DNA from: Nitrospina sp.
Lineage (GTDB): Bacteria > Nitrospinota > Nitrospinia > Nitrospinales > VA-1
Direction: 5' to 3'
NCBI GenBank assembly: GCA_018673915.1
Contig: JABHBK010000001.1
Coordinates: 68,069-132,068 of the forward strand
Length of the DNA: 64,000 nucleotides
How positions within the stretch are numbered: position 1 is the first letter of the stretch; every line of letters begins with the position of its first letter. Both the position numbers and the translations under genes were made by a program. Shown piece by piece: positions 4,865 to 49,264 of the stretch. The notes below the pieces were generated by a model that saw only the letters and a list, made by a program, of their open reading frames with translations, did not search any database and was not told the origin of the DNA.

Positions 4865-5080
4865 ACGTAACAATTTTGTGATAAATTGAGGTATTCTATT
4901 GATTTTAAAGCCTTTAAGATTTAGATTGGCGAGCGGTGCGGAGGAGGTAGATGCATTGAATTTTATAAATAGTATGAATTATTTATAAAAATTTATACTA
5001 ATGTGGGAATGTGTTGCATATTTCTAGCCTTAATAGGGGGTGGGTGGAGCGAGGGAGGGTTTGAAGTTTTAGGGGGAGGG

Positions 5081-5533
5081 TTATTGTATCCAGACAAGGG
5101 GTCGGTAGATCCAGGCTTTGTCTCCGGCGGCGTCTTCAACATGGACCCAATTGTTCTTGATTTTGAGGACTTTCATGGAAAAAAATTTATCTACCGGTGC
5201 CCAGCTCACTTTGGGAAATTTGGTGCCGGGTCCTTCTCTGAGATTGGTTTTATTATTTTTGATGACGGCGCATTTGAATTTTTGGGTGGTGAGGGGAGCG
5301 TGGACCCAATACGCGTCTCCATCCAGATCCTGCACCTGTTTCCAGTCATTTCTGGTTTTTAATAGTTTAAAGGGCATGTATCGGAATACCTGCCAGAGTT
5401 TTTCGTGTTTGGTGCCGGGTCCTTTTCGCAAATTAGCTTTCTCGCTTTTGATGCAAAGAGCCAATGCGGGGCTGACCTCAAAACATAAAAAGATCAAGGC
5501 CAATAAAGAAGCGGATATAGAAAATTTAGTCAT
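5081..5533 (-). CDS. secreted protein with two bacterial SH3 (SH3b) repeats
   Basis: Signal peptide present. Two repeats of the type ANLRKGPGTKHEKLW...NDWKQVQDLDGDAYWVH and TNLREGPGTKFPKV...NNWVHVEDAAGDKAWIY. Confidence 0.75.
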   Translation of the reverse strand: MTKFSISASLLALIFLCFEVSPALALCIKSEKANLRKGPGTKHEKLWQVFRYMPFKLLKTRNDWKQVQDLDGDAYWVHAPLTTQKFKCAVIKNNKTNLREGPGTKFPKVSWAPVDKFFSMKVLKIKNNWVHVEDAAGDKAWIYRPLVWIQ

Positions 5534-5583
5534 AGTGTTCCGATGTAGAGGGTATGTAGGTAGATCAGTGAATTAATTCTCGT

Positions 5584-6306
5584 TTATGTTCTTCCATATT
5601 CTAAAACGAACAAACCGCAAGAAATGACTCCGTATATCATGAAAATCTGAAGCAGAAAACGTGAAGAGGTAACCGGTTGAACTTCTTTACCGTTGACTTT
5701 GAAGGTGAAGGAAAACGCCTGCTTTTCTATGTGGTCATCTTTTTCAAGCATATCAAATAACTCAGCCTTAATCCGTTTTTTCTTTTCTTTCCCTTCAGAG
5801 GTTTTGACGATTACCTTGTAAGAAATATTTTGAAACAGGCCCGTATCTATCTTCTTTTCCAACACGGTTCCATCCATCACTGAAAAAAACTTAAAAAATA
5901 TCAGAGCACCCAAAAGGGAAACCATGAGAGTTTTCCCGTTGAGAAAAGTGGTGCGCAGCGTTTCTTTGTTGTTTTGTCTTTGCTGGTGTCCCATGAAGAA
6001 GGTATGCATGGCTGGAGTGAAAATATCCCATTGAAAATAAGGGTAGCCGGAGTAATGCGGACGTGTGTACCAAGGTTGGGCTTGCTCTTTGTGTTGAAAG
6101 TCATCATAAGCCCGTCTGCGCTTCAGGTCTGACAATACGGAGTAAGCTTCGGCGATTCGGGAAAATCGTTCCTGGTCGACAGGGCTGGGATTCTGAATCC
6201 GGTCAGGATGATATTGCTTCGCCTGTTCTCGATAGGCGGATTTGATTTCCAGATATCCCGCATTTTCTGTCACGCCGAGTAAGGCATAGTAATCAGGATT
6301 GCTCAT
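5584..6306 (-). CDS. J-domain (DnaJ-like) membrane protein
   Basis: N-terminal DYYALLGV...IKSAYREQAKQYHPDR with an HPD motif. Hydrophobic helices sit mid-protein and at the C-terminus. There is a 4-nt overlap with the upstream DedA gene. Confidence 0.8.
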   Translation of the reverse strand: MSNPDYYALLGVTENAGYLEIKSAYREQAKQYHPDRIQNPSPVDQERFSRIAEAYSVLSDLKRRRAYDDFQHKEQAQPWYTRPHYSGYPYFQWDIFTPAMHTFFMGHQQRQNNKETLRTTFLNGKTLMVSLLGALIFFKFFSVMDGTVLEKKIDTGLFQNISYKVIVKTSEGKEKKKRIKAELFDMLEKDDHIEKQAFSFTFKVNGKEVQPVTSSRFLLQIFMIYGVISCGLFVLEYGRT

Positions 6307-6881
6307 GATGAAGAGGGAGCCACTTTTTTGGTGAGCCAGATCATTATTACAATAAACGCCAGGGTCAGAAGGATAACGCTGGCTTTAAATGGGTTCAAGG
6401 TGTTGATCAATACTTTCCCCAATGACAGACTCAAAAAAGTATAAGCGACCGAAAAAAGGATATTGCCCGCGAACGAATATAAAATGTAACGCCGAATATC
6501 GTATCGGATCATCCCTGCAAAGGGAGGGATGATTTTAGAAACCACGAACAGAAAACGTCCAAGGATGACCATCGATGCAGGGTGGCTTCGAAAAGCACGT
6601 TGAGTCCAACGGATGGGTTTTTCCAGTTTACGGACAAAACCAAACTGCATCCAATAGTCCAGTCCGGTTTTGTAACCCAGAAAATATAAAAACAGGTCGG
6701 CGATCCAGCCTCCTGCAAATCCGCAAAACAGGACTCCATACGGGCTCAACAAATCCTGCGAAGCGGCGATACCTCCAAAAACGAGGAATAGGGGAATTCC
6801 ATAATGATCGAAATAAGTGCCGATCAGGATCACTACGTATCCGTAATCCCGGACCAGCGGTTCGATGGATTCAGGGGACAT
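6303..6881 (-). CDS. DedA/SNARE-associated family membrane protein
   Basis: 192 aa and polytopic. DedA-like motifs include GYVVILIGTYFDHYGIPLF and GRFLFVVSKIIPPFAGM. Confidence 0.75.
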   Translation of the reverse strand: MSPESIEPLVRDYGYVVILIGTYFDHYGIPLFLVFGGIAASQDLLSPYGVLFCGFAGGWIADLFLYFLGYKTGLDYWMQFGFVRKLEKPIRWTQRAFRSHPASMVILGRFLFVVSKIIPPFAGMIRYDIRRYILYSFAGNILFSVAYTFLSLSLGKVLINTLNPFKASVILLTLAFIVIMIWLTKKVAPSSS

Positions 6882-7165
6882 TATTCGCAGGAGTCACACA
6901 ACATATTGGTCAGCGCATTCATACAACAACAACCAGCATAGGTGCCTGCCCCGGACACAGCACTGTGTTTAAAAGTTTCTTTCATGTCCGGACGTTGGTT
7001 GTAATATTGTTGTGGAGGCGGCGATTGCCTGTATTGCTGGGGAATTTCTGTTTCACCCTGTTGTTGCGGGGACTCGGCATTAGGGTCCTGATTCAATCCT
7101 TTTCCACACTGGGTGCAGAAATTAGACTCTTCACTGTTTTCGGCTCCGCAATTTCCACAAAACAT
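6881..7165 (-). CDS. zinc-ribbon protein with Q/P-rich linker and Cys-cluster tail
   Basis: An internal ATG gives MFCGNCGAENSEESNFCTQCG (CxxC-x12-CxxC). The tail is GCCCMNALTNMLCDSCE. The longer track ORF (to 7228) would overlap the upstream gene. Confidence 0.55.
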   Translation of the reverse strand: MFCGNCGAENSEESNFCTQCGKGLNQDPNAESPQQQGETEIPQQYRQSPPPQQYYNQRPDMKETFKHSAVSGAGTYAGCCCMNALTNMLCDSCE

Positions 7166-7175
7166 ATTGGCTCCT

Positions 7176-8111
7176 TTAAAAATCTTTACAGTTGAACAGG
7201 GTTCGTTCAGGATTTTGTTTTTTCTCAATCATGGATTCAAACACTTTTCCTGTTTCCTTGTCAAGACAGTGAGTGATAATATTTTCGACCACGGGAAACG
7301 ATTCGTTCAGGCTCAAAGCGGGGAGGCAAGTCAGTAGTGCCTGTTTTTCGTTGGCAATGAGTTGGCTGTATTTATCATAGGTTTTCTCAAGCCGGGCTCT
7401 ATCTTCGGGGTCTACTGCTTCCTCTGCGTGTTGAATTAAATTGAACCGCCCTGCTTTTAAATCGGAATGAAAATCCTCCATTGCATCGAGTAGATTGATG
7501 ATTTTCCCCAGTCCTGTAAAAAGCACTTCCAGAGCGGAAAGGCGGGAAGGGTCGACTTTGTCTTTAAACGGTTGAGTCATGATATAGGCAAAAGTTTCGC
7601 CCCAGCATTCCTGGATTTCAGAAAAACTTTTGGAACTCTCTTCCAGTCTGTTCAGTACTTTTAGTCTTTCCTGTATTTGTTCGACATCTATGTTGAAGAT
7701 TTGGTATTGATCAATATTGGCATCAAATGTTTTTTGAAATCGGGACTGGAGAGCTTTGTTGTAGCGGGTAACCCAAAACCCTTTCTCGTCATCGAGGTTG
7801 TCTTGAAACTTTATTTGGAAAGCCAATAGGCTAATCAAGGCTCCAAGTCTTACGGCTGGATGGTCTGAGGACAGGGACGCAACTTTAGCAATGGGCATTC
7901 CTGAGCAACGATCCTTGACCGCACGGATGTCTTGCACTACCATTTCGTTATACAACATGGCGATCAGGGTGCCCTCATAGGTATTCACAAAGGCGTATAA
8001 GCGGTTGTGGGTTTTCACCATATGGCGGCAAATACTACAGTAGTAGAGCTTGTAGTACAGGCAGTCCTTGAGCAGAAGCTCCATTTTTTCCGGTTTTAAA
8101 ATTCCGATCAT
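7176..8111 (-). CDS. DUF5685-like protein of unknown function
   Basis: The N-terminus MIGILKPEKMELLLKDCLYYKLYYCSICRH matches my recollection of the DUF5685 start pattern (MxGxxxPxxxEL...Y..YCxxC). The rest is helical. Confidence 0.45.
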   Translation of the reverse strand: MIGILKPEKMELLLKDCLYYKLYYCSICRHMVKTHNRLYAFVNTYEGTLIAMLYNEMVVQDIRAVKDRCSGMPIAKVASLSSDHPAVRLGALISLLAFQIKFQDNLDDEKGFWVTRYNKALQSRFQKTFDANIDQYQIFNIDVEQIQERLKVLNRLEESSKSFSEIQECWGETFAYIMTQPFKDKVDPSRLSALEVLFTGLGKIINLLDAMEDFHSDLKAGRFNLIQHAEEAVDPEDRARLEKTYDKYSQLIANEKQALLTCLPALSLNESFPVVENIITHCLDKETGKVFESMIEKKQNPERTLFNCKDF

Positions 8112-8189
8112 GGGAAAGTTGGATGGGTTGATTCAGAAGTTGGTATCATTATAGGTCATCCGGTTTCCTCGATCAAAAGGGAAGGTCTC

Positions 8190-9320
8190 TTGCTACAAAT
8201 ATTGACATTACTGCAACTGGTATTAATTGTGGGGATAATCGTCTACCTGACGGCGAACATGATTTATCTGGTTCGCCTTGAACCTGTTTCCCATCTGCTG
8301 GATGATCCCCCTATGGTTTCGGTATGCGTCCCGGCACGAAATGAGGAGCGAGGTATTCGGGCTTGTTTGGAATCCCTTTTAAAGCAGGATTACCCCCAGT
8401 TTGAAGTGATCGTGGTGAACGACCATTCCACAGATCGTACCGGCGAATTGATCAATGGCCTGAAAGACCCTCGTTTAATTGCGCTAGAAGGAGAGCCCTT
8501 GCCTGATGGCTGGCTGGGGAAACCTTTTGCCCTGTATCAGGCTTTTCAGAAGGCAAAAGGAGACCTGCTATTGTTCACCGATGCCGACCCTGTTTTTGAA
8601 CCTCATGCTTTAAGTACCGCTGTGTTCACCATGAGAGAACGCGAGCTGGACGCCTTGACTTTGATGCCCAAAGCGGAATTCGGTTCTTTTTGGGAGAGGG
8701 CGGTGCAACCCGTTATCTTTGGTTTTATCGGCTCCTTGACACGATTCAGAAAAGTGAACAGCCCCGATCACAAAAGCGCGATGGGATTCGGTGCATTCCT
8801 GATGTTCAAACGTTTTGCTTATGAATCCATCGGGGGACACGAGGCTGGAAAAGCCGATGTGCTGGAAGATGTGTTGATCGCTAAACGGCTTAAAAAGGCA
8901 GGATTCAAACTTCTCGTTGCCGATGCCAAGCGTTTGTTTTCTATCCGCATGTATTATGGGTTCCGTGAAATCTGGACGGGCTGGCGAAAAAATATGTTCC
9001 TGGCTATGAGACGGTCTGTTCCACGCGTGCTTTATTATGTATCCATGGTGCTGGCGTTTGTGCTAACCCCTTATCTGATTCTGGCTTGGAATGTGGCAGT
9101 TGGAACGGGTATTTTGTGGCTGGGGCTCTCCCTTTTCGGGGTGATCATGGTTTTTGCAGCATCGATAAAAACCTGCGATGAGTTGGAGATGCACCGTATC
9201 AACGCCTGTCTGTTCCCGATAGGTGCCGTTGTGATGGCGGCAATCATGATAAACTCCATGATCCAGATCCTGGTATTTTCCCGTGCTGAGTGGCGGGGAA
9301 GAGTTTATTCAATGAAATGA
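8190..9320 (+). CDS. family-2 glycosyltransferase with C-terminal membrane helices
   Basis: VSVCVPARNEERGI...DYPQFEVIVVNDHSTDRTGE and FTDAD (DxD) motifs, followed by several TM helices. Confidence 0.85.
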   Translation: MLQILTLLQLVLIVGIIVYLTANMIYLVRLEPVSHLLDDPPMVSVCVPARNEERGIRACLESLLKQDYPQFEVIVVNDHSTDRTGELINGLKDPRLIALEGEPLPDGWLGKPFALYQAFQKAKGDLLLFTDADPVFEPHALSTAVFTMRERELDALTLMPKAEFGSFWERAVQPVIFGFIGSLTRFRKVNSPDHKSAMGFGAFLMFKRFAYESIGGHEAGKADVLEDVLIAKRLKKAGFKLLVADAKRLFSIRMYYGFREIWTGWRKNMFLAMRRSVPRVLYYVSMVLAFVLTPYLILAWNVAVGTGILWLGLSLFGVIMVFAASIKTCDELEMHRINACLFPIGAVVMAAIMINSMIQILVFSRAEWRGRVYSMK

Positions 9321-9374
9321 TGACAAAACTAAACTCGATGGAATAATTAGACACTTTCCTTCCTCTAACTTGAT

Positions 9375-10277
9375 ATGCAAAATTATCCACGTCTTTTTAT
9401 AAAAGCAGGTCTTATCTATGCATTGATTGGGGCTCTGCTTGGCATTGTCATTTCGATCAATCCATCGCTTTCGCATCCGCTTCGGTTTATTCATATTCAT
9501 CTGAACCTGCTTGGGTTCATGACCATGATGGTGGCGGGTGTCGCCTACCACGTGCTGCCCCGGTTCAGCGCAAGAACCCTACCTTGGCCAGGAGGAATGA
9601 AGGTCCAGTTTATTTTGCAGAATACAGGGCTCATCGGAATGGTTGCCGTGCAGGGATTCGGCAGTTGGCGAGGCGGAGAGCATCAGCCCATTTTTGTTTT
9701 CTTTGCTTTACTCGCCGGAGTGGCATTTGGAATCATGTTTTACAATCTCTATTTTGTCCTCTCCCCGAGCGCAGAAGAAGAGGCGCCCCCTACAAAAATT
9801 ACTGGCGATATGAAAGTGGGGATCGTACTCGACCAATTCCCCTCCTCCTTGACTATTTTTATTGAGAATGGATTCCAGGCTCTGGCTAATCCCACAGCAC
9901 GGCAAACCTTTGCCAAAATGGTGTCCATAGATAAAGCCTGCGAAAAACATGGTGTGTCTTCTGCAGAGTTTCTGGAAAAACTTAATCAGGAAATTTTTAG
10001 CAAAGAAACATCTTCGGCATCCGGAGAAACTGACTCAGCAGGGCAGGAAATTCAGCGTGGGGAAATGTGTGAGGGAGATACCCGGGTGGGGAGTTTGATT
10101 AAAACTTATCTCACGACCAAGTCTGTTTTCGAAAAGCATTATGGCGAAGGCTGTTTCTCTTGTCCCGGTCAGGTCTATGAGACCGTGGCACAAACCGCCA
10201 GCATGCATAATGTCGATCTGGAACTAATTTTGGCGGAAATCAATATCGAAATAGAGAAAGAATTGAAAGCTTCATGA
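9375..10277 (+). CDS. 4-TM protein with haem-copper-oxidase helix-X-like His motif fused to two DUF1858 domains
   Basis: TM2 reads HIHLNLLGFMTMMVAGVAYHVLP. The C-terminal half has DMKVGIVLDQFP...MVSIDKACEKHGV and DTRVGSLIKTY...CFSCPGQVYETVAQTASMHNVDL, which are ScdA_N/DUF1858-like. Confidence 0.6.
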   Translation: MQNYPRLFIKAGLIYALIGALLGIVISINPSLSHPLRFIHIHLNLLGFMTMMVAGVAYHVLPRFSARTLPWPGGMKVQFILQNTGLIGMVAVQGFGSWRGGEHQPIFVFFALLAGVAFGIMFYNLYFVLSPSAEEEAPPTKITGDMKVGIVLDQFPSSLTIFIENGFQALANPTARQTFAKMVSIDKACEKHGVSSAEFLEKLNQEIFSKETSSASGETDSAGQEIQRGEMCEGDTRVGSLIKTYLTTKSVFEKHYGEGCFSCPGQVYETVAQTASMHNVDLELILAEINIEIEKELKAS

Positions 10278-10281
10278 CATT

Positions 10282-10596
10282 GTGAATTCAAAAAACGAAT
10301 TCAAAGAATATGTTCTGGATCAGCTTTGTCGGTTGAATGGTGTGGAATGCAAACATATGTTTGGCGGATTCGGCCTGTATTGCAACGGGGTGTTTTTCGC
10401 CATCATCGCTGATGGCTGTGTTTATTTTAAAACGAATGCCACCACCGTTGACGCTTTTAAGGCAAGAGGCATGCAACCTTTCAAACCCTCCGCTAAACAG
10501 ACCTTGAAAAACTATTACGAAGTCCCCGCCGAAATCCTCGAAGATGAAGATCAACTTGCCGAATGGGCAAAAAGAGCTTCGGCAAGTGACAAGTAG
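10282..10596 (+). CDS. TfoX N-terminal domain protein
   Basis: KHMFGGFGLYCNGVFFAIIADGCVYFK fits the TfoX_N pattern MFGG.GLY..G..FA.I.D..LYFK. Confidence 0.7.
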   Translation: MNSKNEFKEYVLDQLCRLNGVECKHMFGGFGLYCNGVFFAIIADGCVYFKTNATTVDAFKARGMQPFKPSAKQTLKNYYEVPAEILEDEDQLAEWAKRASASDK

Positions 10597-10682
10597 ATTT
10601 ATTAAAAAATGAGCTATTGTCTTTGAGCTACCAGATAAAAAGACTAAAATTTAATTTTGAAAAAGTAAGTTTGTAGTATCGA

Positions 10683-11117
10683 ATGAGCTATAAATATTTA
10701 CTAAAAGGAGAGGAGATGGACGACCCAAAAAAAGAATTTGAGCGCCTGAGACTTCTGTTTGACTATACAAAGTTCCATATAGGGATGTACACAACGATTA
10801 TTGGTATTTCTATAGGTGTGATTAAGATTGGCCCTGGTAATATAGAGATTAATATTTCTATTTTTGTCGCTGCGATTATATTATTTCTAATTGCTGGTTT
10901 AGCGGGGGGAGTGATAGCGAGTAGCACTCCAGAGTACACAAGTTACACTGAATTTTTGAAGGCAGAAATATTTCCCGGTAAAAGGGGATGGCTTAAGTTT
11001 ACGGCGAAAAGCTGGATTCGTAAAGAGCATAGGTGTTTCTGGATTGCTGTGGCTCTGCTATTACTATCTTTTTGGAATCCATTATTCTTGAGATCGCTGG
11101 ATATTATTTGTAAATAA
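10683..11117 (+). CDS. hypothetical membrane protein
   Basis: 144-aa ORF with 3-4 hydrophobic helices. I do not recognise the family. Confidence 0.45.
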   Translation: MSYKYLLKGEEMDDPKKEFERLRLLFDYTKFHIGMYTTIIGISIGVIKIGPGNIEINISIFVAAIILFLIAGLAGGVIASSTPEYTSYTEFLKAEIFPGKRGWLKFTAKSWIRKEHRCFWIAVALLLLSFWNPLFLRSLDIICK

Positions 11118-40947: not shown

Positions 40948-41210
40948 ATCAGCCATTATTCTAGAGAGAGTGAATCGGTTCAACAACTAATTTGACAATA
41001 TAAAAATAAGGGTAATCTCTTCTATTTATAGTTTTTTGGGTGAAAAAGCAATTCTGATACGAGTGAACCCATTTTCGCGCTGTAGGACAAATGCCTATCC
41101 CGTTCTCAGTTTAATGATGTAGGGCGCGAAGGTGAATGGCTGATACTTAAGAGCTCCTTCGGTCTTTATACTTATAAGGCTGAATATCGACTTAATGCAA
41201 AGGCCAAAAC

Positions 41211-41564
41211 ATGCGCATTACACAAATTATTTTTTGTTTGCTGTTTTCACTCGGCATTTCTGTGGGTCTGGTGAAGGCAGAACCTCGAGTGATATCCTTG
41301 AATGTGCTGGGACAGGGTCCTTTAAAAATTTTTCAAAATGTTCCTGTTCAAGTGAGCAATACCTTTCAAACAAACTTGTATAACTTGACCGTGACAAAAC
41401 CACCTATCGCCAAAGAAATCCTTTCCGTATCCAAATTCATTCCCGGGCAAACCTTTGACCTTTCTTTTTCCAAAGTGGGGGCCTATGAGATTTGCTTTTC
41501 CAAAGGAAAAAATGAGGCTCGGACCTGCCTGAACCTGGATGTTCTGAAAAGAACAGTTGCCTGA
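41211..41564 (+). CDS. small secreted beta-sandwich protein (cupredoxin_1-like shape, no Cu ligands evident)
   Basis: Signal peptide MRITQIIFCLLFSLGISVGLVKA. ...PGQTFDLSFSKVGAYEICFS. Confidence 0.45.
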   Translation: MRITQIIFCLLFSLGISVGLVKAEPRVISLNVLGQGPLKIFQNVPVQVSNTFQTNLYNLTVTKPPIAKEILSVSKFIPGQTFDLSFSKVGAYEICFSKGKNEARTCLNLDVLKRTVA

Positions 41565-41648
41565 TGGGCACACCTTTCCTGATTTCCCTGGTAAATTTTG
41601 GGTCTAGGAAGTTGTAAGCCTCCTTTATACGCAGGGGGGACGACCTGT

Positions 41649-42638
41649 TTAGGGAGCAACCCTCCAAATCGAGTTTACAAAATATTTCTGCGAATCAAAT
41701 AAATGTTCCTCGATTTGAAACCCGCTTTCAGTGGCGAGGCTTTCTATTTCCTCAAGAGTAAATTTAAAAGATTGTTCCGTCTGCATCGTTTCCCAAGCTT
41801 TAAAATGATAGTCTTCGTCTAAGGACTTAATATGTACAGTTTGGTTGCATGTGCTGTATAGATAACTTTCAACTGCGCGGGTATTTGGGTTGTATTGGCC
41901 TTGTTGCACAAAGTTATTTTTATTAAAGTTTGCTCCGAGCATCTGATTAATGCGATCCAGAAGATGCAGATTGAATTTTTCAAATAGCTGGTTATTGTAG
42001 GCAGAATAAAGCAGTTTAGGGTTTTTCATGAGGTCAAATCCAATCAATAAGTAATCCTTTGGTCCCAGCGTCTCGCATAAATTTTTGAGAAATGATCGGG
42101 CTGTATCCCGGTCCATATTGTTCAGGGTTACTCCTAAAAAGAGGACCAGGTTTTGCTTTGAACCTTCTTGTGTAATGGTGTTGAGACCATCAAAATAATC
42201 TCCGATCAAACCTGTAACTTGAAGGTGGGTGTCTTGCTGTTCAGCTTCCAGGGATCGAACCAGGTTTGTGACCGCTCCGCTGGAAATATCTATGGGGAAA
42301 TAATGAAAACCGAAATTTTCATTGAGTAAATGTTCGATGAGAATCCTGGTCTTACAACCATCCCCTGAACCCAACTCGATAAGGTTGAATTTGTCACCGG
42401 AAATAAGTTTTGCAATTTTGTTTTTATGGTTACGAATGATTTCAAATTCACATGCTGCGGGAAGATACTCTGCGAGCTCTGTTATCGCCTTGAAAATCAC
42501 ACTTCCAGCGCTATCAAAAATTAGCCAGGAGGGTAAACACTTGTTATCAAGTGAGAGGCCCTTATGAACTGCGCTTGCAAATTGATCCTCCTGAGAAATT
42601 GATGCGGACCCGGCTTTCAGGGTTTTTGTTTCAAACAA
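41649..42638 (-). CDS. EgtD-family (Methyltransf_33) SAM-dependent amino-acid N-methyltransferase
   Basis: TTG start after GAAAGGAG. LPSWLIFDSAGSVIF..ITELAEY, LIELGSGDGCKTRILIEHL, YFPIDIS, LFLGVTLNN, and TEQSFKF colinear with M. smegmatis EgtD as I recall it. Confidence 0.75.
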   Translation of the reverse strand: MFETKTLKAGSASISQEDQFASAVHKGLSLDNKCLPSWLIFDSAGSVIFKAITELAEYLPAACEFEIIRNHKNKIAKLISGDKFNLIELGSGDGCKTRILIEHLLNENFGFHYFPIDISSGAVTNLVRSLEAEQQDTHLQVTGLIGDYFDGLNTITQEGSKQNLVLFLGVTLNNMDRDTARSFLKNLCETLGPKDYLLIGFDLMKNPKLLYSAYNNQLFEKFNLHLLDRINQMLGANFNKNNFVQQGQYNPNTRAVESYLYSTCNQTVHIKSLDEDYHFKAWETMQTEQSFKFTLEEIESLATESGFQIEEHLFDSQKYFVNSIWRVAP

Positions 42639-42842
42639 GAGTGCAGCTCCTTTCTCGGCTGGGTGAATTTGACCCTGTTAATTTCATTTGTTATAGTACT
42701 TTTATGAACCTCTTTTTACACCTTATTTTATTAGCTCGATCAAATTCTGTAGGATAATTTTTCCTGCATTCATGATGTCTATTGGTTGATGGTTGTCGTT
42801 TAAACAGATAGACTCGAATTCTAATTTAAAATACTCAATTCA

Positions 42843-43904
42843 ATGCATTTTAATTCACAAACAGATTCTACAGCCCTAGATTATACCTACCAGGAATTGG
42901 AGGATGAGTTCGTAGGTTTGATGAATTTGAATAATCTGGATAGAGTCATTGCGGGAAACCCTGATCGGGTTGAAAGTTTTGAGTTGGAACTTGAAGTTTC
43001 TTTGTCTGCCGCATTTGAAAGTGGTGCGGGTTGCCCTCAAGCACGCTTGCTTTTGCAGAGAATTCTATATCGCATAAACCGTTTGAAACTTTTTTGGTAT
43101 GACGGATTAGACAATTATGCCAATGAAGATTCCAGTTTCCTGTTTTCATTACGAATGAAAATTGAGAATGCCTGGCAGGATTGGGAGGATGGTAATAACA
43201 TCATGCGCAATTCCGATGATCTCCGCGGGGCTCTTCGTGATCGTGTGCAGGATGACCTGCAACCCGAGCCGTCGCCGGATGGTTTGGTCATTCGTAATGA
43301 GATTTCAAAAGCCGGGTACCAGCAATTGCTCGCTATAACTTCCCTGGACGGTCTGGTGGAAGCGAGTCAGCTTTCCCGTATGCTTGGAGGTGTCGGAAAC
43401 GAAGTGCAGACGATGCTGACGCGGATTTTATGGGAAGAATATGGTAGTGGAAAATTTTCGCGAAAGCATTCCACACATTTCGCACTCATGCTGGAAGAAT
43501 GTGATTTAGATTCAAGGCCGGAAGTTTATTTTGATCTTGCGCCGTGGGAGGTGCTGGCAAATATTAACCATAGTTTTTTTCTTTCCGAGCGTAAGAAAAA
43601 CTTTTTACGTTATATCGGTGGTTTGCTCTACACGGAAGTTTCTGTTCCTGCTGCGTTTCAAAATATCAAAATGGCTGGTGAGCGTTTGGAAATGGGTGGA
43701 AAGGGGGTCAGCTATTGGGATCTTCATATCCAAGAGGATATCCGCCATGGGCAATGGATGCTGGATGATGTTGCCTTTCCCCTGATTGAAAAATATCCTG
43801 ATCAAGCCTGGGACATGGTAAAGGGGTATGACCAGCAAAAGTTTATCAGCTCCCGTGCGACCTCAGCCATTGTAGAGTCCATTCGACAACTGGAATTCTC
43901 CTGA
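42843..43904 (+). CDS. haem-oxygenase-like di-iron (iron-containing redox enzyme) family protein
   Basis: LWEEYGSGKFSRKHSTHF (E..E/H helix) and YWDLHIQEDIRHGQW (H-x2-ED-x2-H) are typical metal-ligand helices of the family. No Shine-Dalgarno sequence, so the start is uncertain. Confidence 0.6.
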   Translation: MHFNSQTDSTALDYTYQELEDEFVGLMNLNNLDRVIAGNPDRVESFELELEVSLSAAFESGAGCPQARLLLQRILYRINRLKLFWYDGLDNYANEDSSFLFSLRMKIENAWQDWEDGNNIMRNSDDLRGALRDRVQDDLQPEPSPDGLVIRNEISKAGYQQLLAITSLDGLVEASQLSRMLGGVGNEVQTMLTRILWEEYGSGKFSRKHSTHFALMLEECDLDSRPEVYFDLAPWEVLANINHSFFLSERKKNFLRYIGGLLYTEVSVPAAFQNIKMAGERLEMGGKGVSYWDLHIQEDIRHGQWMLDDVAFPLIEKYPDQAWDMVKGYDQQKFISSRATSAIVESIRQLEFS

Positions 43905-43920
43905 GAACTACCAATATTAA

Positions 43921-44352
43921 TCAGGAAGAAATATCCAAAGTCTTTTTTGTGTCAATGGTCAACAATAAGGCGTCCTTGAGTTTATAGACTCCATGAATCA
44001 ATTGGCGTGCTACGTCATCCAATGTTTCGGGAGGAGGCTCAAGGGCTTCATCCCCCACCTCGAGAACATCTCCGATGCGGTCAACCAGGAGGCTCACTAC
44101 ATCATCATCGGTCCTGATAACTACATTCATGGGTTTCTTGTCACCTGGAAGGTCTTTCATTCCTAGCCGACGTCTCAAATCAATGGCTGTAATGATTTGT
44201 CCTCTGAGATTGATCAATCCTCGAACCACTGAGGGAGCAAGTGGAACCTGCGTCATTTCCTGGTAGCGAAAAACTTCCTGCACCCGTTCCACTTCGACAC
44301 CAAAAAAACGATCCTCAAGGTAAAATGTGCAAAACTGTTTTTGATCATTCAT
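43921..44352 (-). CDS. cheW: chemotaxis coupling protein CheW
   Basis: 143 aa. FCTFYLEDRFFGVEVERVQEV...PLAPSVVRGLINLRGQIITAIDL. Confidence 0.92.
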   Translation of the reverse strand: MNDQKQFCTFYLEDRFFGVEVERVQEVFRYQEMTQVPLAPSVVRGLINLRGQIITAIDLRRRLGMKDLPGDKKPMNVVIRTDDDVVSLLVDRIGDVLEVGDEALEPPPETLDDVARQLIHGVYKLKDALLLTIDTKKTLDISS

Positions 44353-44476
44353 GGCTTACTTCCTCAAGTTTTTTTCAATCATGGAGCTGCATATTCTTTA
44401 TCTAAAGGAACGGAGTACAGCCAGCAATTGATTTCATATCGATCCTTTCATCAAGAATTAGAAACAGGAATGACCA

Positions 44477-47113
44477 TTAATGGGTTAAACTCAAAACCTC
44501 TTGGTGGTCATCAAAAAATGCTGGGTCCATTTCACGAACAATGCCCTCCATGTCAATCAAGTCCGTGACCAAATCTTGAACCACTACCGTTCCCAGGATT
44601 CCTTTCCGTGTAAGAGATCTTTTTACAGTTATATTTTCTTCGACAATATCAAGAATTTGATCGACCACCAGGGCTACACTTTTATTTTGGTGCGTGTATA
44701 TGATCGTTTGAATCGTTGCATTCTTTTTGACCTGTTGGCTGGAATCGAAAAAATTTAAAAGATCAATAAGAGGTATGATTTCTCCTCGGTATTGAATGAC
44801 GTCATTGTTTCCTGAGCGTTCAATGTCCGAACATTTGAATTCCTCCAGGCGTGCGACAGTAGAAAGCGGGATGGAGTTTCGTCCTTTTTCTCCAACTCTA
44901 AAGATCAATAAGGTTTCCTTGTCAGTAACCTCATTGTCTGCCAGGCTTTTATCTTTCGAATCTGCCATGGCTTGCTCCTGGTTTTCACGGACTACCTGTG
45001 CCTTTTGAGCCAGACCCATTATGTCAAGGATCAGTGCCACGCTTCCGTCTCCCATAATGGTTGCTCCAGAAAAACCTGCGATTCCCTTCAATTGGTTTCC
45101 CAAGGGTTTCACTACAATTTCCTCCGCATCACAGATCTGCTCAACGACGAGGCCAAACTGTCTTTCATTGGCGTTTAAAACAACAATATTGGTCGCTGTT
45201 TGAGCACTTTCATTTTTTGAAATTCCCAGTTCAGAATTCAAATTTATGATGGGCAAAAGGTTACCTCGAAGACGATATACCGGGGTCCCTTGAATCGTTT
45301 CGATCGCTTTTTCAGACTGCTCCTCATTCAAACGGACCAGCTCCAGCAGATTCACTTGAGGTATTGCATACTGGTTGCCTCCTGTTGAAACGATCAAAGC
45401 TGGAATAATTGCCAGGGTTAAAGGAATTCTTACTTTCAGGGTGGTGCCTTCCCCTTGACAGGTATGAATATCAACCGTTCCACCAATTTTATCAATATTG
45501 GTTTTAACCACATCCATCCCGACACCACGACCGGATACATTTGTAACTGCTTTCGCTGTAGAAAGCCCAGGCATGAAAATAAGGTTCACCAATTCGCGCT
45601 CGCCCATTTTTGCAGCCTGCTCGCTGGTGATCAAACCTTTGCTCAAGGCTTTTTCTTTGAGGATAGAGGGGTCAATTCCACCGCCATCATCTGTGATTTC
45701 AATAATGACCTGTCCTCCCTCATGGTAGGATTTCAGCTGTAAAACGCCTTCCTCAGGTTTACCTAGGTCGCGTCTTACATCGGGGATTTCTATCCCATGG
45801 TCTACTGAGTTACGTATAATATGTGTTAGCGGATCCTTAATCGCCTCGATCAAGGTTTTGTCCAGCTCCGTTTCTTTTCCTTCCGTTTCAAGGCGAATTT
45901 TCTTGCCGCATTCCATGGACAAATCACGAACTATTCTGGGGAACTTGCTCCAAATTCCGCCTATAGGCTGCATCCGCGTTTTCATCACTCCTTCCTGAAG
46001 ATCAGAAGTCACCAAATTTAAATGCTGGGAAGTTTCCATGAAGCTGGCATCATGGTGAGAGGAACTAAACTGCAGAACCTGATTTCTAGCTAAGACCAGT
46101 TCTCCAACCAGGTTCATCAGCTTATCAAGCAACTGGACATCAACGCGAATACTGGAATCCTCCAGCTTGCGCTCTTCCTTTTTTGCCGTACCTGAGCCAG
46201 AAGATTTTTTAACTTTTCCATTGGATGGGGTTACTTCAGGTTTTCCGTTCCCGGGCGTAAGACCTGACACTTCAGGAGCCTCTTTAGTTAGGGCTATTTC
46301 TTTTTTGGAGGGTTCTGATTTTGTTCGATTCAGAACATCATTTTTAACAGAAAGCGCTATGCGGGCCGCCTCCCCAATTAAATCACCGGGAACTTTCAAT
46401 TCCATCAAGGTCGTTCCAAAGTCTTCTATGACCGCATCAAAATGGCTTTCGTTCAGGCCTTTCTCTTCTACAAGATATTTGTGCGTTTCCCTGAGTCCTC
46501 TTCCGTCATAATTACTGGGGCCGCCAAACGCGAAAGCCAAAAACTCTTTTTGCTTATTCAGAAGGTGGTTCAAGTCTGCGCCTTCAAAAAAATGACTGAT
46601 ACGGTCGTCATTTAGAACTTTTGCGTAAAACAGGTTGACCGTTGCATCGACCGCTTCTTGTCCACCCATTCTCTCAAAAAGGGATGCAGGCTTTGCACCA
46701 TTCCCATTTCCTGAGGCTGGTTTTCCAGTCGCATCTGCCCGCAGGCGTTCCATGGACTCAATTAATCCAGAAAAATTATGATCTCCTTCATTTCCCTGTT
46801 TAGTTACAGATGTGAATATTCTGCGTATTGAATCTGACAGTTCATGCAGGATATTCATGATTTCTGGAGTTGGTGCTACCTTGCCCTGCTGAAGCGCATC
46901 TAGAAAGTTTTCACCAGAGTGGGTTAGAGATTCGAGCTTGGTGTAACCAATTAATCCGCAGCTACCCTTGATGTTATGGATAGTTCGAAAAATACCTTCT
47001 AATAATTCCGGGGAATGGGGAGTTTCTTCCAGGCTAATCAGGTCCTGATCAAACCGATCCAGGTTCTCACGACTCTCGGCCACAAACTCCAAGATCATTT
47101 CATTGGCTTGCAT
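44477..47113 (-). CDS. cheA: CheA-type histidine kinase with embedded truncated-globin domain and two CheW-like domains
   Basis: ATG at 47113 follows AGGAAGGA. Hpt domain (FRTIHNIKGS), globin-like insert, dimerisation helix, HATPase (NSVDHGIE, DDGGGI, GRGVGMDVV), then two CheW-like modules. Confidence 0.92.
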   Translation of the reverse strand: MQANEMILEFVAESRENLDRFDQDLISLEETPHSPELLEGIFRTIHNIKGSCGLIGYTKLESLTHSGENFLDALQQGKVAPTPEIMNILHELSDSIRRIFTSVTKQGNEGDHNFSGLIESMERLRADATGKPASGNGNGAKPASLFERMGGQEAVDATVNLFYAKVLNDDRISHFFEGADLNHLLNKQKEFLAFAFGGPSNYDGRGLRETHKYLVEEKGLNESHFDAVIEDFGTTLMELKVPGDLIGEAARIALSVKNDVLNRTKSEPSKKEIALTKEAPEVSGLTPGNGKPEVTPSNGKVKKSSGSGTAKKEERKLEDSSIRVDVQLLDKLMNLVGELVLARNQVLQFSSSHHDASFMETSQHLNLVTSDLQEGVMKTRMQPIGGIWSKFPRIVRDLSMECGKKIRLETEGKETELDKTLIEAIKDPLTHIIRNSVDHGIEIPDVRRDLGKPEEGVLQLKSYHEGGQVIIEITDDGGGIDPSILKEKALSKGLITSEQAAKMGERELVNLIFMPGLSTAKAVTNVSGRGVGMDVVKTNIDKIGGTVDIHTCQGEGTTLKVRIPLTLAIIPALIVSTGGNQYAIPQVNLLELVRLNEEQSEKAIETIQGTPVYRLRGNLLPIINLNSELGISKNESAQTATNIVVLNANERQFGLVVEQICDAEEIVVKPLGNQLKGIAGFSGATIMGDGSVALILDIMGLAQKAQVVRENQEQAMADSKDKSLADNEVTDKETLLIFRVGEKGRNSIPLSTVARLEEFKCSDIERSGNNDVIQYRGEIIPLIDLLNFFDSSQQVKKNATIQTIIYTHQNKSVALVVDQILDIVEENITVKRSLTRKGILGTVVVQDLVTDLIDMEGIVREMDPAFFDDHQEVLSLTH
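46328..46687 (-). other. group-I truncated haemoglobin (Bac_globin-like) domain inside CheA
   Basis: SLFERMGGQEAVDATVNLFYAKVLNDDRISHFFEGADLNHLLNKQKEFLAFAFGGPSNYDGRGLRETHKYL...HFDAV, colinear with M. tuberculosis HbN as I recall it. Confidence 0.75.
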
Positions 47114-47189
47114 GATTGATTCCTTCCTTATTTCTTTAGTATTCACGGGCCTTACCTCCAGATAAAGTTCCCGAAACTGTTGGGAGTTT

Positions 47190-47242: not shown

Positions 47243-49264
47243 TTAGCCATTAAACTCGCTGACAATATTTTGCATTTCTGCCGCCAGTTTAGACAATTCA
47301 CTCGCTGCTGTTTGAGTATCCGTAGCACCTTCGGTGGTGCTATGAGCCGCCTGAGCCACACCGGCAATATTCTCGGCAATCTCTTGAGATCCGCGGGAGG
47401 CATCGGTGACATTACGGGTGATCTCGTTGGTGGTGGCCGACTGCTCCTCCACCGCACTGGCAATGGTGTTGGAGATATCGCTGATCTGGCCAATAACCCC
47501 GCTGATCTCACCAATAGCAGTTACAGCACTCTGAGTATCCGTTTGTATGGCGGAGATTTTACTGCTGATTTCCTCGGTAGCCTTGGCAGTCTGATTAGCC
47601 AGTTCCTTGACCTCGTTGGCGACTACGGCGAATCCTTTACCTGCTTCACCAGCACGTGCTGCTTCAATGGTGGCATTCAAGGCCAATAGATTGGTCTGTT
47701 CCGCAATCGAGGTGATGACTTTGATGACTTGGCCAATCTCAGCCGAACTGACTCCCAACTGGGTCACTGTCTTGTTGGTGGTCTCGGCCAACTGAACCGC
47801 ATCGCTGGTGACTTTGGTAGCCTGGTTGGCGTTATGAGCAATCTCTTTTATGCTTGCGCTCATTTCTTCCGAACCGGTAGCTACCGTTTGAATGTTCTGG
47901 TTCACCTGATCGGAGGCGGCAGAGACGACATTGGACTGAGCCGAAGTCTCTTCCGCATTTCCGGCCATTTGCTGGCTGGTGGCGGTCAACTCCTCTGAGG
48001 CTCCGGCAAGGGTCTGGGCTTTTTCCGCAACATTGTTAAGAACCTTCTGCATGTTTTCGTTCTGTTCTTTTTCGCGTTTTTCAGCCGCCAGTTTTTCGGT
48101 AATCACTTCCCAGGTAACCATGGGCCCGAGGTAATTTTTATCCTTATCATAGATAGCACTGACCAGAAGATCGAGGACCTCAGGACCCACTTGTATTTCT
48201 GCACGATGTGGCAGGTTATTGGGATCAGATAGAATTTTGCGCTGATGTGCAGGGTTCTTGTGGAAAACATCTATGGATGAACCCATTAATTGGTCCACTC
48301 GAATAGGAAGATGTTGTTCAATGGTTTTTAATGTTGTAACGGATGCTGGGTTGACGTAGGTGATTTGAAAGGTTTCTGCATCAGCAAAAAGCACGTTCAC
48401 TGGGGCATTTTCCATCATGGAGTTAACTCGGGCGACTTCATTCTCGGTCTTTAACTTTTGAGTTATAACGTCCCAAGTGACCATCGGTCCCAGGTAGTTC
48501 TTGTTTTCATCATAAATAGCGCTGACCAGAAGATCGAGGATCTCAGGCCCAACTTGTATTTCTGTACGATGCGGCAGGTTATTGGGATCAGAAAGAAGTT
48601 TTCTTTGGTGCGCGGGGTTCTTGTGAAAAACATCTATGCATTGTCCCATCAATTTATCCACAGGAATGGGTAAATATTGTTCAATGGTTTTTAACGTCTT
48701 TATGGAAGCAGGGTTGACATAGGTGATTTCAAAACTATCTTTATCGGCATATATGACGTTAACCGGGGCGTTCTCCATCATTGAGTTGACCCTATCCATA
48801 GCCCGTTTCGTGATATTGATTTTGGTGACATCTTCCCAGTTGACGACATAACCGGAAATCATACCATTGGAATCGTTGATTGAGTTTATGGTAGCGGCAA
48901 GCGTCACCCCACCAAAACCAAACTCAGCCGTGTGCGGCAAAGCAGAAGGATTGCGTAAAATTCTTTCAATCTTTTGCGGGTCTTTATGAAACCGGTGGAT
49001 GGAACCACCGACGATATCGTTCAGGTTAACCCCAAATGCTTCATTAATCTGGTCCTTGATGGTTTCCAAGGTGTTCACAGCACTTTGATTGGCGTAAACG
49101 AGAGTGAAATTTGTATCCGCCACCAGCACATTTGCTTGAACATTGTCCAGGCAGGAAAGCAGACCTCCCGAAGATTTCATTAAACCATTACTGCCATTTC
49201 CTCCACCAAACAGGCCGAGAAATCCAGATTTACTTGCAGATGATTGGGTGGCGAGCATATTCAT
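47243..49264 (-). CDS. soluble methyl-accepting chemotaxis protein with three N-terminal PAS domains
   Basis: No TM helix. Three PAS modules each carry FHK(N/D)P...W(D/E)(D/V). The C-terminal MCP signalling domain has ([29 protein letters not shown]). GGAGGA Shine-Dalgarno sequence. Confidence 0.92.
48092..48793 (-). repeat. tandem 363-bp duplication encoding PAS2 and PAS3 of the MCP
   Basis: GACCAGAAGATCGAGGA occurs at 48161 and 48524, an offset of 363. The protein copies differ at 20 of 113 aligned residues by my count. Confidence 0.9.

What the first reader, a model, noticed from the sequence alone, without database searches (positions are those of the whole stretch)
41649..43904. Orphan EgtD-family methyltransferase divergently paired with a haem-oxygenase-like di-iron enzyme
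The 329-aa protein is colinear with histidine N-alpha-methyltransferase EgtD (ELGSGxxxKTR, Y.P.D.S, FLG...NN, AY.., TE.S.KF). No EgtB, EgtC, EgtE or OvoA-type sulfoxide synthase is present in the window.

Its divergent neighbour, 204 bp away, carries the ligand helices of the haem-oxygenase-like di-iron oxidase/oxygenase superfamily: EEYGSG-x6-H and H-x2-ED-x2-H. This is the superfamily of SznF, UndA, BesC and CADD.

A methyltransferase acting on an amino acid, followed by an HDO oxidation, is the logic of streptozotocin biosynthesis (SznE/SznF). An EgtD-fold enzyme in that role would be an undescribed small-molecule pathway.
Basis: partly seen in the sequence, partly recalled or inferred. Interest (0 to 1): 0.65.

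Follow-up and report, generated by a model that had tools for sequence, protein, structure and literature searches.

The report
EgtD-like methyltransferase paired with N-oxygenase
Marine nitrite-oxidising bacteria carry a conserved, uncharacterised two-gene unit, a modified copy of the ergothioneine methyltransferase EgtD next to a di-iron enzyme of the nitrogen-oxidising type, that probably makes an unknown methylated, N-oxidised amino-acid derivative rather than ergothioneine.

Summary
A 329-aa Methyltransf_33 protein (41649-42638, minus strand) and a 353-aa haem-oxygenase-like di-iron protein (HDO; 42843-43904, plus strand) diverge from a 204-bp spacer. The window is from Nitrospina or a close relative.

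The pair recurs in 55 of 59 Nitrospinota/Nitrospirota loci with room to test, amid changing flanks. Cultured N. gracilis has it too.

The HDO keeps all six canonical metal ligands. It also keeps the seventh Glu and a pocket Asp of SznF, which the SznF paper treats as the N-oxygenase signature. Its nearest solved structures are SznF, HrmI and RohS.

The methyltransferase keeps every EgtD residue that holds the alpha-amine and carboxylate. It has Thr213->Phe in 57/57 orthologs, versus Thr in 89/89 reference EgtDs. It scores below the NCBIfam EgtD cutoff, and no egtB/C/E is in the window.

HDO orthologs at 50-57% identity in cyanobacteria and Pyrinomonadaceae lack this methyltransferase. They share 107 conserved positions with the paired ones. 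The HDO therefore probably acts on a common metabolite, so the SznE/SznF order (methylation first) is not supported.

Substrate and product remain unknown. I found no prior description. I rate it a new variant of a known kind, of moderate interest.

The parts
41649..42638 (-). EgtD-like SAM-dependent amino-acid N-alpha-methyltransferase (Methyltransf_33), 329 aa, TTG start
   Evidence: Pfam PF10017 E=1.4e-84. TIGR03438 scores 254.4 bits against a cutoff of 290.9. Best solved relative is M. smegmatis EgtD, E=4e-38. Backbone-binding residues Y58, N174, Y214 and S290 (EgtD Y56, N166, Y206, S284), plus F49 and E288, are invariant. F219 replaces EgtD T213 in 57/57 orthologs.
42843..43904 (+). Haem-oxygenase-like di-iron enzyme (HDO) of the seven-ligand, N-oxygenase type, 353 aa
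   Evidence: Pfam PF14518 E=1.2e-24. phmmer against PDB: SznF 7e-12, RohS 3e-8, HrmI 8e-7. Candidate ligands E173, E199, H209, E265, H295, D299 and H302 are invariant. AF2 model has pLDDT 85 and pTM 0.86. Foldseek top hits are SznF, HrmI (TM 0.78-0.81) and RohS.
42639..42842 (.). 204-bp divergent intergenic region shared by the two genes
   Evidence: A divergent arrangement with a 113-429 bp gap is kept in 55 related genome loci.
42647..42652 (-). Shine-Dalgarno sequence (AAGGAG) of the methyltransferase, 8 nt before its TTG start
   Evidence: Read directly. The CTCCT block is conserved in the intergenic alignment.
42669..42697 (+). Sigma-70-like promoter facing the HDO (TTGACC-17-TATAGT, extended TG)
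   Evidence: 10/12 match. Both hexamers are conserved in about 13 of 15 Nitrospina loci. The overall count of promoter-like sites in the region is not above chance.
42718..42778 (+). Candidate structured element in the HDO 5'-UTR: an outer stem enclosing two hairpins
   Evidence: RNAalifold on 9 Nitrospina loci gives 20 pairs, 5 with compensatory double changes. The covariation term is only -0.1 kcal/mol, and the window copy breaks 2 outer pairs. No Rfam match. Tentative.

Best explanation
The two genes form a co-inherited, functionally coupled cassette of marine nitrite oxidisers. It most likely makes an N-methylated, N-oxygenated amino-acid derivative that is not ergothioneine.

The HDO is an O2-activating di-iron enzyme of the seven-ligand type. 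It most likely hydroxylates, or further oxidises, a nitrogen atom (amine, guanidine or amino-imidazole type) of a common amino acid or a close derivative.

The methyltransferase is a neofunctionalised EgtD. It still grips an L-alpha-amino acid by its carboxylate and alpha-amine and transfers methyl groups from SAM to the alpha-nitrogen. Its side-chain pocket is altered (Thr213->Phe, usually Tyr39->Phe).

The HDO's conserved residues are the same in lineages that lack this methyltransferase. I therefore infer that the HDO works on a shared precursor, and that the methyltransferase is a lineage-specific partner step, more likely after the HDO than before it.

Shown here: domain identities, ligand conservation, fold similarity, pocket substitutions, gene-pair conservation and absence of egtB/C/E from the window.

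Inferred: N-oxygenation chemistry, N-alpha-methylation, functional coupling and order of steps.

Unknown: the substrate (a histidine-like or basic amino acid is the leading guess) and the product.
For: Pair conservation:
- Of 59 Nitrospinota/Nitrospirota genome loci with at least 1 kb upstream, 55 have the MT as a divergent neighbour, with gaps of 113-429 bp.
- Flanking genes differ completely between Nitrospinaceae and Nitrospirales.
- N. gracilis has the pair.
- MT and HDO pairwise identities correlate, Pearson 0.94 over 51 loci.

HDO type:
- E173 aligns with SznF E189, the seventh ligand. D169 aligns with SznF D185, the only charged residue in the SznF pocket.
- E173 is invariant and D169 is at least 90% conserved. 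The SznF paper treats this motif as the N-oxygenase signature.
- The top structural matches are the three N-oxygenases. FlcD, PqqC, CADD, BesC and PolF rank lower.

MT is not canonical EgtD:
- TIGR03438 scores are 254-277 bits for four paired MTs, versus 297-403 for six genuine EgtDs; the cutoff is 290.9.
- T213 is Thr in 80/80 actinobacterial-type EgtDs and in 9/9 phylogenetically diverse EgtDs, but Phe in 57/57 paired MTs.
- T213 positions the water that hydrogen-bonds the imidazole.
- No EgtB/C/E is in the window.

A methylation theme recurs: cyanobacterial HDO orthologs sit between two unrelated class-I methyltransferases.

The HDO active site is the same in all contexts: 107 shared conserved positions against 2 differing.
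Against: - No chemistry was tested. Substrate, product and order of steps are all inferred.
- The MT keeps E282, F47 and every backbone contact. M252S also occurs in genuine egtB-linked EgtDs. The MT could therefore still be a histidine methyltransferase.
- The HDO is not obligately linked to this MT: 0 of 14 cyanobacterial/acidobacterial loci have it, and 4 Nitrospinota loci with room lack it.
- Correlated divergence is expected for any two linked genes.
- I could not scan whole Nitrospina genomes for egtB, eanB or ovoA.
- The seventh-ligand rule for N-oxygenases rests on few characterised enzymes.
Confidence: 0.55

Rival explanations
1. The MT is still a genuine histidine N-alpha-methyltransferase that makes hercynine or mono-/dimethyl-histidine. 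The HDO acts on histidine or hercynine itself, for example by oxidising an imidazole or alpha nitrogen. That would give a new histidine-betaine derivative, a thiol-free relative of ergothioneine.
For: All backbone contacts plus E282 and F47 are invariant. The nearest relatives of the MT are egtB-linked EgtDs of the Picosynechococcus/Comamonas type, which already carry Ser at position 252. TIGR03438 scores are only 14-37 bits below the cutoff. RohS, a close HDO relative, acts on an imidazole compound.
Against: Thr213, which positions the imidazole-binding water, is invariant in 89/89 reference EgtDs but is Phe in 57/57 paired MTs. HDO orthologs with the same conserved residues occur without any EgtD-type enzyme nearby. 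The known N-oxygenating HDOs oxidise exocyclic amine or guanidine nitrogens, not ring nitrogens.
Confidence: 0.22
2. The two genes are merely long-standing neighbours with independent functions. The HDO has its own conserved role, the same one as in cyanobacteria, Acidobacteria and green algae. The MT makes an amino-acid betaine for another purpose, such as osmoprotection.
For: The HDO occurs without the MT in 14/14 cyanobacterial/acidobacterial loci, in 4 Nitrospinota loci, and as a lone nuclear gene in Chlamydomonas. Its conserved residues do not depend on the partner.
Against: The pair survives complete turnover of flanking genes across two phyla, always divergent with a short spacer. The clade-specific T213F change coincides with HDO linkage and loss of egtB linkage. 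Other methyltransferases flank the HDO in cyanobacteria.
Confidence: 0.15
3. This is an ordinary ergothioneine pathway. The MT is EgtD, and egtB (or eanB) is encoded elsewhere in the genome. The HDO is unrelated.
For: Public pipelines name these proteins L-histidine N(alpha)-methyltransferase. In Sinorhizobium, egtB and egtD are about 2 kb apart rather than adjacent. An EgtD-annotated protein next to a cysteine-desulfurase-like gene is expressed in Nitrospira marina.
Against: There is no EgtB/C/E in the 64-kb window or in any of the paired loci. The only EgtB-like hits are a 265-aa secreted protein with an FGE-sulfatase domain and no DinB domain. Scores fall below the equivalog cutoff that all six tested genuine EgtDs pass. 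T213F is present in 57/57. No paper in the library links ergothioneine or EgtD with Nitrospina or Nitrospira.
Confidence: 0.08

Closest known systems
SznE/SznF (streptozotocin biosynthesis, Streptomyces achromogenes)
   Same: A SAM methyltransferase acting on an amino acid is combined with an HDO N-oxygenase. The window HDO aligns with the SznF central domain (E=7e-12) and keeps all seven ligands and the pocket Asp.
   Different: There is no C-terminal cupin domain: the protein is 353 aa, against 471 aa for SznF. The methyltransferase is EgtD-fold (alpha-N-directed). From my own knowledge, SznE is an unrelated arginine omega-N-methyltransferase. The order of steps here is unknown, and the evidence leans towards the HDO acting on an unmethylated common precursor.
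EgtD, L-histidine N-alpha-methyltransferase (ergothioneine pathway; PDB 4PIM)
   Same: Same Methyltransf_33 fold, about 32% identity. The residues that bind the substrate carboxylate and alpha-amine (Y56, Y206, S284, N166), plus F47 and E282, are the same.
   Different: T213->Phe in all orthologs and Y39->Phe in most. Scores fall below the TIGR03438 cutoff. The gene is linked to an HDO rather than to EgtB/EgtC/EgtE.
HrmI/BelK (L-lysine N6-oxygenases making 6-nitronorleucine)
   Same: Stand-alone HDO of similar length, about 340 aa. It is the best whole-length structural match, TM 0.78-0.81 over about 330 columns. It acts on a free amino acid.
   Different: Only about 17% identity. The window HDO's substrate is unknown. 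Its N-terminal 165 residues carry family-specific conserved motifs.
RohS (2-aminoimidazole N-oxygenase, azomycin pathway)
   Same: Seven-ligand HDO with the HxxxDxxH motif.
   Different: RohS is shorter (306 aa), shares about 21% identity, and belongs to a five-gene roh cluster that is absent here.

Membership tests
EgtD (L-histidine N-alpha-methyltransferase, NCBIfam TIGR03438 equivalog) | Methyltransf_33 domain and fold | tested here: met
   PF10017 E=1.4e-84 over residues 21-326. EgtD structures are the best PDB hits, E=4e-38.
EgtD (L-histidine N-alpha-methyltransferase, NCBIfam TIGR03438 equivalog) | Score at or above the curated equivalog cutoff (290.9 bits) | tested here: not met
   The window MT scores 254.4. 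Three other HDO-paired MTs score 260.2, 260.7 and 276.5. Six genuine EgtDs score 297-403.
EgtD (L-histidine N-alpha-methyltransferase, NCBIfam TIGR03438 equivalog) | Residues binding the amino-acid backbone (Y56, N166, Y206, S284) | tested here: met
   Invariant in 57/57 paired orthologs.
EgtD (L-histidine N-alpha-methyltransferase, NCBIfam TIGR03438 equivalog) | Imidazole-pocket residues (T213, E282; also Y39 and M252) | tested here: not met
   E282 is kept. T213->F in 57/57 and Y39->F in 45/57, against T213 and Y39 invariant in the actinobacterial-type EgtDs and in 9/9 diverse EgtDs. M252->S does not discriminate, because it is Ser in 3 of the 9 diverse EgtDs, all three with an EgtB hit in the same locus.
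EgtD (L-histidine N-alpha-methyltransferase, NCBIfam TIGR03438 equivalog) | Genomic association with EgtB (or EanB) and other egt genes | tested here: not met
   There is no EgtB/C/E in the window at E<=10 and none adjacent in the paired loci. Presence elsewhere in the genome could not be tested.
EgtD (L-histidine N-alpha-methyltransferase, NCBIfam TIGR03438 equivalog) | Histidine-specific trimethylation activity | not testable with these tools
   This needs an enzyme assay.
HDO superfamily (haem-oxygenase-like di-metal oxidases/oxygenases, PF14518) | Helical HO-like fold with three His and three carboxylate ligands on the core helices | tested here: met
   PF14518 E=1.2e-24. E199, H209, E265, H295, D299 and H302 are invariant. 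The all-helical AF2 model matches HDO structures with probability 1.00.
N-oxygenating HDO subclass (3H/4C; SznF, RohS, HrmI) | Seventh carboxylate ligand on auxiliary helix 2 | tested here: met
   E173 aligns with SznF E189 and is invariant. This is sequence-level evidence only; metal coordination was not observed.
N-oxygenating HDO subclass (3H/4C; SznF, RohS, HrmI) | Catalyses N-hydroxylation or N-oxidation | not testable with these tools
   Inferred from the ligand set and nearest relatives only.
SznF family proper (N-nitrosourea synthase) | C-terminal cupin domain fused to the HDO domain | tested here: not met
   The protein is 353 aa and ends with the HDO fold; no cupin was found by Pfam. 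SznF-like proteins of about 450 aa match only residues 160-346.

The most novel reading that the evidence does not exclude
A very strongly conserved seven-ligand HDO family makes a previously unknown N-oxygenated amino-acid metabolite. The family is shared by the ocean's dominant nitrite oxidisers, filamentous and desert cyanobacteria, soil Pyrinomonadaceae and green algae, including Chlamydomonas. In nitrite oxidisers a neofunctionalised EgtD converts the metabolite to, or supplies it as, an N-alpha-methyl or betaine form. The product would be a new class of redox-active or NO-related small molecule in organisms central to the marine nitrogen cycle.
Probability: 0.3. Interest if true: 0.8.

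Novelty: new variant of a known kind. Interest (0 to 1): 0.55.

Why it matters
Nitrospina and marine Nitrospirales are the main nitrite oxidisers of the ocean, yet their small-molecule metabolism is almost unknown.

This cassette is nearly universal in them. It is present in a cultured strain (N. gracilis) and has only two genes, so it can be tested directly by heterologous expression.

If the prediction holds, three things follow:
- It would add a new substrate class to the N-oxygenating HDOs.
- It would show that the EgtD scaffold has been recruited outside thiol-histidine biosynthesis.
- It would correct a systematic database mis-annotation. These proteins are all labelled "L-histidine N(alpha)-methyltransferase", which wrongly implies ergothioneine synthesis.

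The same HDO in Chlamydomonas and cyanobacteria offers genetically tractable systems for finding the product.

Tried and rejected
- A 23-sequence HDO alignment was too diverse for the genome scan, so I used a 10-sequence subset.
- Rfam found nothing in 41000-44600, so no riboswitch clue to a ligand.
- Literature searches found nothing for EgtD plus HDO, Methyltransf_33, Nitrospina plus ergothioneine, Cre03.g149700, or EgtD plus Nitrospir*/Nitrospin*. The 2026 HDO review lists no such pair. The supplement of the SznF paper is not held.
- Longer HDO homologs carry no informative fused domain.
- Weak EgtB-like hits near the MT in 9 Nitrospinaceae loci turned out to be a secreted protein of about 265 aa with an FGE-sulfatase domain and no DinB domain. 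It is absent from the window, so I rejected it as an EgtB.
- I first counted M252->Ser as evidence against histidine specificity. I withdrew that after finding Ser252 in egtB-linked EgtDs.
- DtpC of A. baumannii is an HDO but only a distant one, so it was not pursued.
- The N. marina proteome shows that an EgtD-annotated protein is expressed. I could not establish whether it is the HDO-paired type.
- No third gene is consistently linked to the pair in Nitrospirales.
Full report
**What is there.** One is a 329-aa protein on the minus strand (41649-42638). Its TTG start is preceded by AAGGAG 8 nt upstream. The other is a 353-aa protein on the plus strand (42843-43904). The spacer is 204 bp.

Pfam assigns Methyltransf_33 (E=1.4e-84) to the first and Haem_oxygenas_2, "iron-containing redox enzyme" (E=1.2e-24), to the second. 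All quoted motifs are present. The only slip is that EEYGSG is followed by five residues, not six, before the ligand His209.

The best named homologs of both proteins come from Nitrospina and Nitrospinae MAGs. The window is therefore from a marine nitrite oxidiser of that group. The flanking genes are unrelated: a DUF4139/DUF4140 protein, a small secreted protein, CheW, CheA, an MCP and sigma-54 regulators.

**No ergothioneine partners nearby.** I recovered genuine EgtB, EgtC and EgtE sequences from canonical egt operons in metagenomes. tblastn with them finds nothing in the 64-kb window at E<=10. The same queries hit 56, 65 and 44 of the canonical loci as positive controls. Pfam scans of the large ORFs show no FGE-sulfatase, DinB or rhodanese domain.

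**The HDO is of the N-oxygenase type.** By sequence, its best solved relatives are SznF (7e-12), RohS (3e-8) and HrmI (8e-7). In a 10-sequence alignment spanning 37-87% identity, E199, H209, E265, H295, D299 and H302 are invariant. They align with the SznF ligands E215, H225, E281, H311, D315 and H318.

E173 aligns with SznF Glu189, and D169 with SznF Asp185. The SznF structure paper identifies Glu189 as the extra seventh ligand. That ligand is conserved in N-oxygenating HDOs but absent from CADD and the desaturases. The same paper says Asp185 is the only charged side chain in the SznF substrate pocket. The RohS paper and a 2026 review use the same 3H/4C criterion.

An AlphaFold model (pLDDT 85, pTM 0.86) matches SznF, HrmI and RohS best. 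The HrmI match has TM 0.78-0.81 over about 330 columns. FlcD, PqqC, CADD, BesC and PolF rank clearly lower. There is no cupin domain, so the protein is not an SznF ortholog.

The full-length family is small. About 47 clusters at 50% identity reach E<=1e-30. Beyond them, SznF-like proteins of about 450 aa match only the core residues 160-346.

**The methyltransferase is EgtD-derived but sits just outside EgtD.** It aligns with M. smegmatis EgtD at E=4e-38. According to an EgtD structure paper, Tyr56, Tyr206 and Ser284 hold the carboxylate and Asn166 holds the alpha-amine. Thr213 positions a water that hydrogen-bonds the imidazole, and Glu282 lies in the side-chain site.

Across 57 HDO-paired sequences, a few of them duplicates of the same genome, Y56, N166, Y206, S284, F47 and E282 are invariant. 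In the same set:
- T213 is Phe in 57/57.
- M252 is Ser in 53/57.
- Y39 is Phe in 45/57.

In 80 actinobacterial-type EgtD loci whose neighbours include recognisable EgtB, EgtC and EgtE, T213, M252 and Y39 do not vary. I then broadened the comparison to nine EgtDs from cyanobacteria, Alpha-, Beta- and Gammaproteobacteria, Bacteroidota and Gemmatimonadota. Eight of these have an EgtB hit in the same locus. T213 and Y39 are again invariant (9/9), but M252 is Ser in three of them. So M252S does not discriminate. T213F, often together with Y39F, is the clade-defining change.

On the NCBIfam EgtD equivalog model (cutoff 290.9 bits), six genuine EgtDs score 297-403 bits. Four HDO-paired MTs score 254-277 bits.

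I conclude that the enzyme still binds an L-alpha-amino acid and methylates its alpha-nitrogen. Its side-chain specificity has probably shifted, but histidine cannot be excluded.

**The pair is a conserved unit in two phyla.** A scan of one genome per species found 523 loci encoding an HDO relative. The best 80 are Nitrospinota, marine Nitrospirota, Pyrinomonadaceae (Acidobacteriota) and cyanobacteria.

Of the 66 loci of Nitrospinota/Nitrospirota type, 59 have at least 1 kb upstream of the HDO. In 55 of those the MT is the divergent neighbour, 113-429 bp away. Four lack it: L017, L049, L059 and L064.

Flanking genes change completely between and within the two phyla, and no third gene is consistently linked. 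The cultured type species N. gracilis has the pair. Pairwise identities of MT and HDO correlate strongly (Pearson 0.94, 51 loci). That fits co-inheritance, although linked genes would be expected to show it anyway.

**The HDO is not tied to this methyltransferase.** None of the 14 cyanobacterial and Pyrinomonadaceae loci has a Methyltransf_33 gene within 6 kb, even though their HDOs are 50-57% identical to the window protein.
- In cyanobacteria the HDO lies directly downstream of a class-I methyltransferase (fam67) and next to an NPPY-motif, PrmC-like methyltransferase (fam21).
- In Pyrinomonadaceae the HDO sits in an operon with a dimethylargininase (DDAH)-like protein (E=3e-40, below cutoff), a GT-like membrane protein and a group-II PLP decarboxylase closest to diaminobutyrate decarboxylases.
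- In two MT-less Nitrospinales loci a SagB-like dehydrogenase lies upstream.
- Homologs also exist as nuclear genes with transit-peptide-like extensions in Chlamydomonas reinhardtii (CHLRE_03g149700) and Apatococcus.

107 positions are at least 90% conserved and identical in both the 51 MT-paired HDOs and the 14 cyanobacterial/acidobacterial HDOs. Only two positions are conserved in both groups but different. The active site, and therefore probably the substrate, is the same in every context.

This argues against the SznE/SznF order (methylation first, then HDO). It favours an HDO that acts on a common metabolite, followed by lineage-specific tailoring. The recurring partners are methyltransferases, a DDAH-like enzyme and a basic-amino-acid-type decarboxylase. 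The known substrates of the nearest HDOs are methyl-arginine, lysine and 2-aminoimidazole. Together these point to a basic or histidine-like amino acid. This is inference, not a result.

**Regulatory region.** A sigma-70-like promoter (TTGACC-17-TATAGT) faces the HDO and is conserved in Nitrospina loci. The HDO 5'-UTR folds into an outer stem with two hairpins. Five of its 20 pairs show compensatory changes among nine close relatives, but the covariation energy is negligible and the window copy breaks two outer pairs. Rfam has no match.

**Known or new.** Nothing in the searchable literature links EgtD-type enzymes with HDOs or with nitrite oxidisers. Public pipelines label the MT orthologs "L-histidine N(alpha)-methyltransferase" and the HDO orthologs "iron-containing redox enzyme family protein" or "hypothetical protein".

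Both enzyme families are well known, and so is the general logic of pairing a methyltransferase with an N-oxygenating HDO. This particular combination and this HDO clade are uncharacterised. I rate it a new variant of a known kind.

**Limits.**
- No assay was possible.
- Whole genomes could not be searched for egtB, eanB or ovoA.
- The HDO tree is a quick neighbour-joining tree.
- The canonical-EgtD comparison set outside Actinobacteria has only nine sequences.
- An EgtD-annotated protein is expressed in Nitrospira marina and is unaffected by low oxygen. Its neighbour is a cysteine-desulfurase-like gene, and I could not determine which type of MT it is.

**Verdict.** My confidence is 0.55 that this is a coupled cassette making a methylated, N-oxygenated amino-acid derivative other than ergothioneine. 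The rivals are a hercynine-based variant (0.22), independent neighbours (0.15) and an ordinary ergothioneine pathway with egtB elsewhere (0.08). Interest is 0.55.

Noticed in passing
window 44477-47146 (-): The CheA histidine kinase just downstream carries a truncated (bacterial-like) globin domain (PF01152, E=3.9e-14, residues 155-253). The domain is inserted between the Hpt and dimerisation domains, and two CheW-like domains lie at the C-terminus. This looks like a haem-based O2/NO-sensing chemotaxis kinase, in a cluster with CheW and a multi-PAS MCP (47243-49264).
   Followed up: partly
window 42718-42778 (+); L005, L006, L008-L010, L012, L018, L019 upstream of the HDO: Conserved element in the HDO 5'-UTR: an invariant 7-bp outer stem (ACATCTT...AAGATGT) encloses two hairpins. 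Five of its 20 pairs show compensatory changes. It has no Rfam match, and the window copy is partly degenerate. It could be a cis-regulatory RNA or a protein operator.
   Followed up: partly
L070, L072, L076, L078, L081, L083 (Pyrinomonadaceae), about 5000-11000 in each: The HDO ortholog sits in a co-directional operon. The order is DDAH/amidinotransferase-fold protein, HDO, GT-like membrane protein, group-II PLP decarboxylase (diaminobutyrate-decarboxylase-like), then a TIM-barrel-like protein with no Pfam hit. This looks like an uncharacterised small-molecule gene cluster.
   Followed up: partly
L074, L075, L077, L079, L080 (cyanobacteria), flanking the HDO at about 5000-8100: The HDO ortholog is flanked by two unrelated SAM methyltransferases. 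A Methyltransf_25-type gene lies directly upstream on the same strand. An NPPY-motif, PrmC/HemK-like gene lies on the other side.
   Followed up: partly
L049 3670-5799 and L064 3694-5823 (Nitrospinales loci without the MT): A SagB-family (nitroreductase-fold) dehydrogenase lies directly upstream of the HDO on the same strand, in place of the methyltransferase.
   Followed up: no
P0138, P0140, P0142, P0154, P0155 (metagenomic HDO-family members, alignment A1): Distant full-length members of the HDO family have lost several metal ligands. For example, EEYG...H becomes LQEDYVG...Y, and HxxEDxxH is degraded. They may be non-catalytic or differently metallated paralogs.
   Followed up: no
P0129 (Chlamydomonas reinhardtii CHLRE_03g149700), P0130 (Apatococcus lobatus), P0123, P0128: Green algae encode ligand-complete homologs, 37-43% identical to the window HDO. 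Three of them carry long Ala/Ser-rich N-terminal extensions that resemble organelle transit peptides. I found no literature on the Chlamydomonas gene.
   Followed up: partly
L009 3426-4223, L019, L040, L045, L050, L054, L056, L061, L066 (Nitrospinaceae): A secreted protein of about 265 aa with an FGE-sulfatase domain (signal peptide, no DinB domain) lies between the DUF4139 gene and the small secreted protein next to the MT. It gives weak EgtB-like hits (E~1e-9) but is not an EgtB, and it is absent from the window.
   Followed up: yes
window 41211-41564 (+): A 117-aa protein with a predicted signal peptide and no Pfam hit converges on the 3' end of the MT gene. It is conserved at this position in 20 Nitrospinaceae loci down to about 57% HDO identity, but not in Nitrospirales.
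   Followed up: partly
Nitrospira marina proteome (PMC8115632, supplementary file 4), IMG genes 2597406855-2597406856: An EgtD-annotated 327-aa protein is detected in the proteome and is unchanged under O2 limitation. Its neighbour is annotated selenocysteine lyase/cysteine desulfurase (EgtE-like class). Whether this is a canonical egt locus or the HDO-paired type is unresolved.
   Followed up: partly
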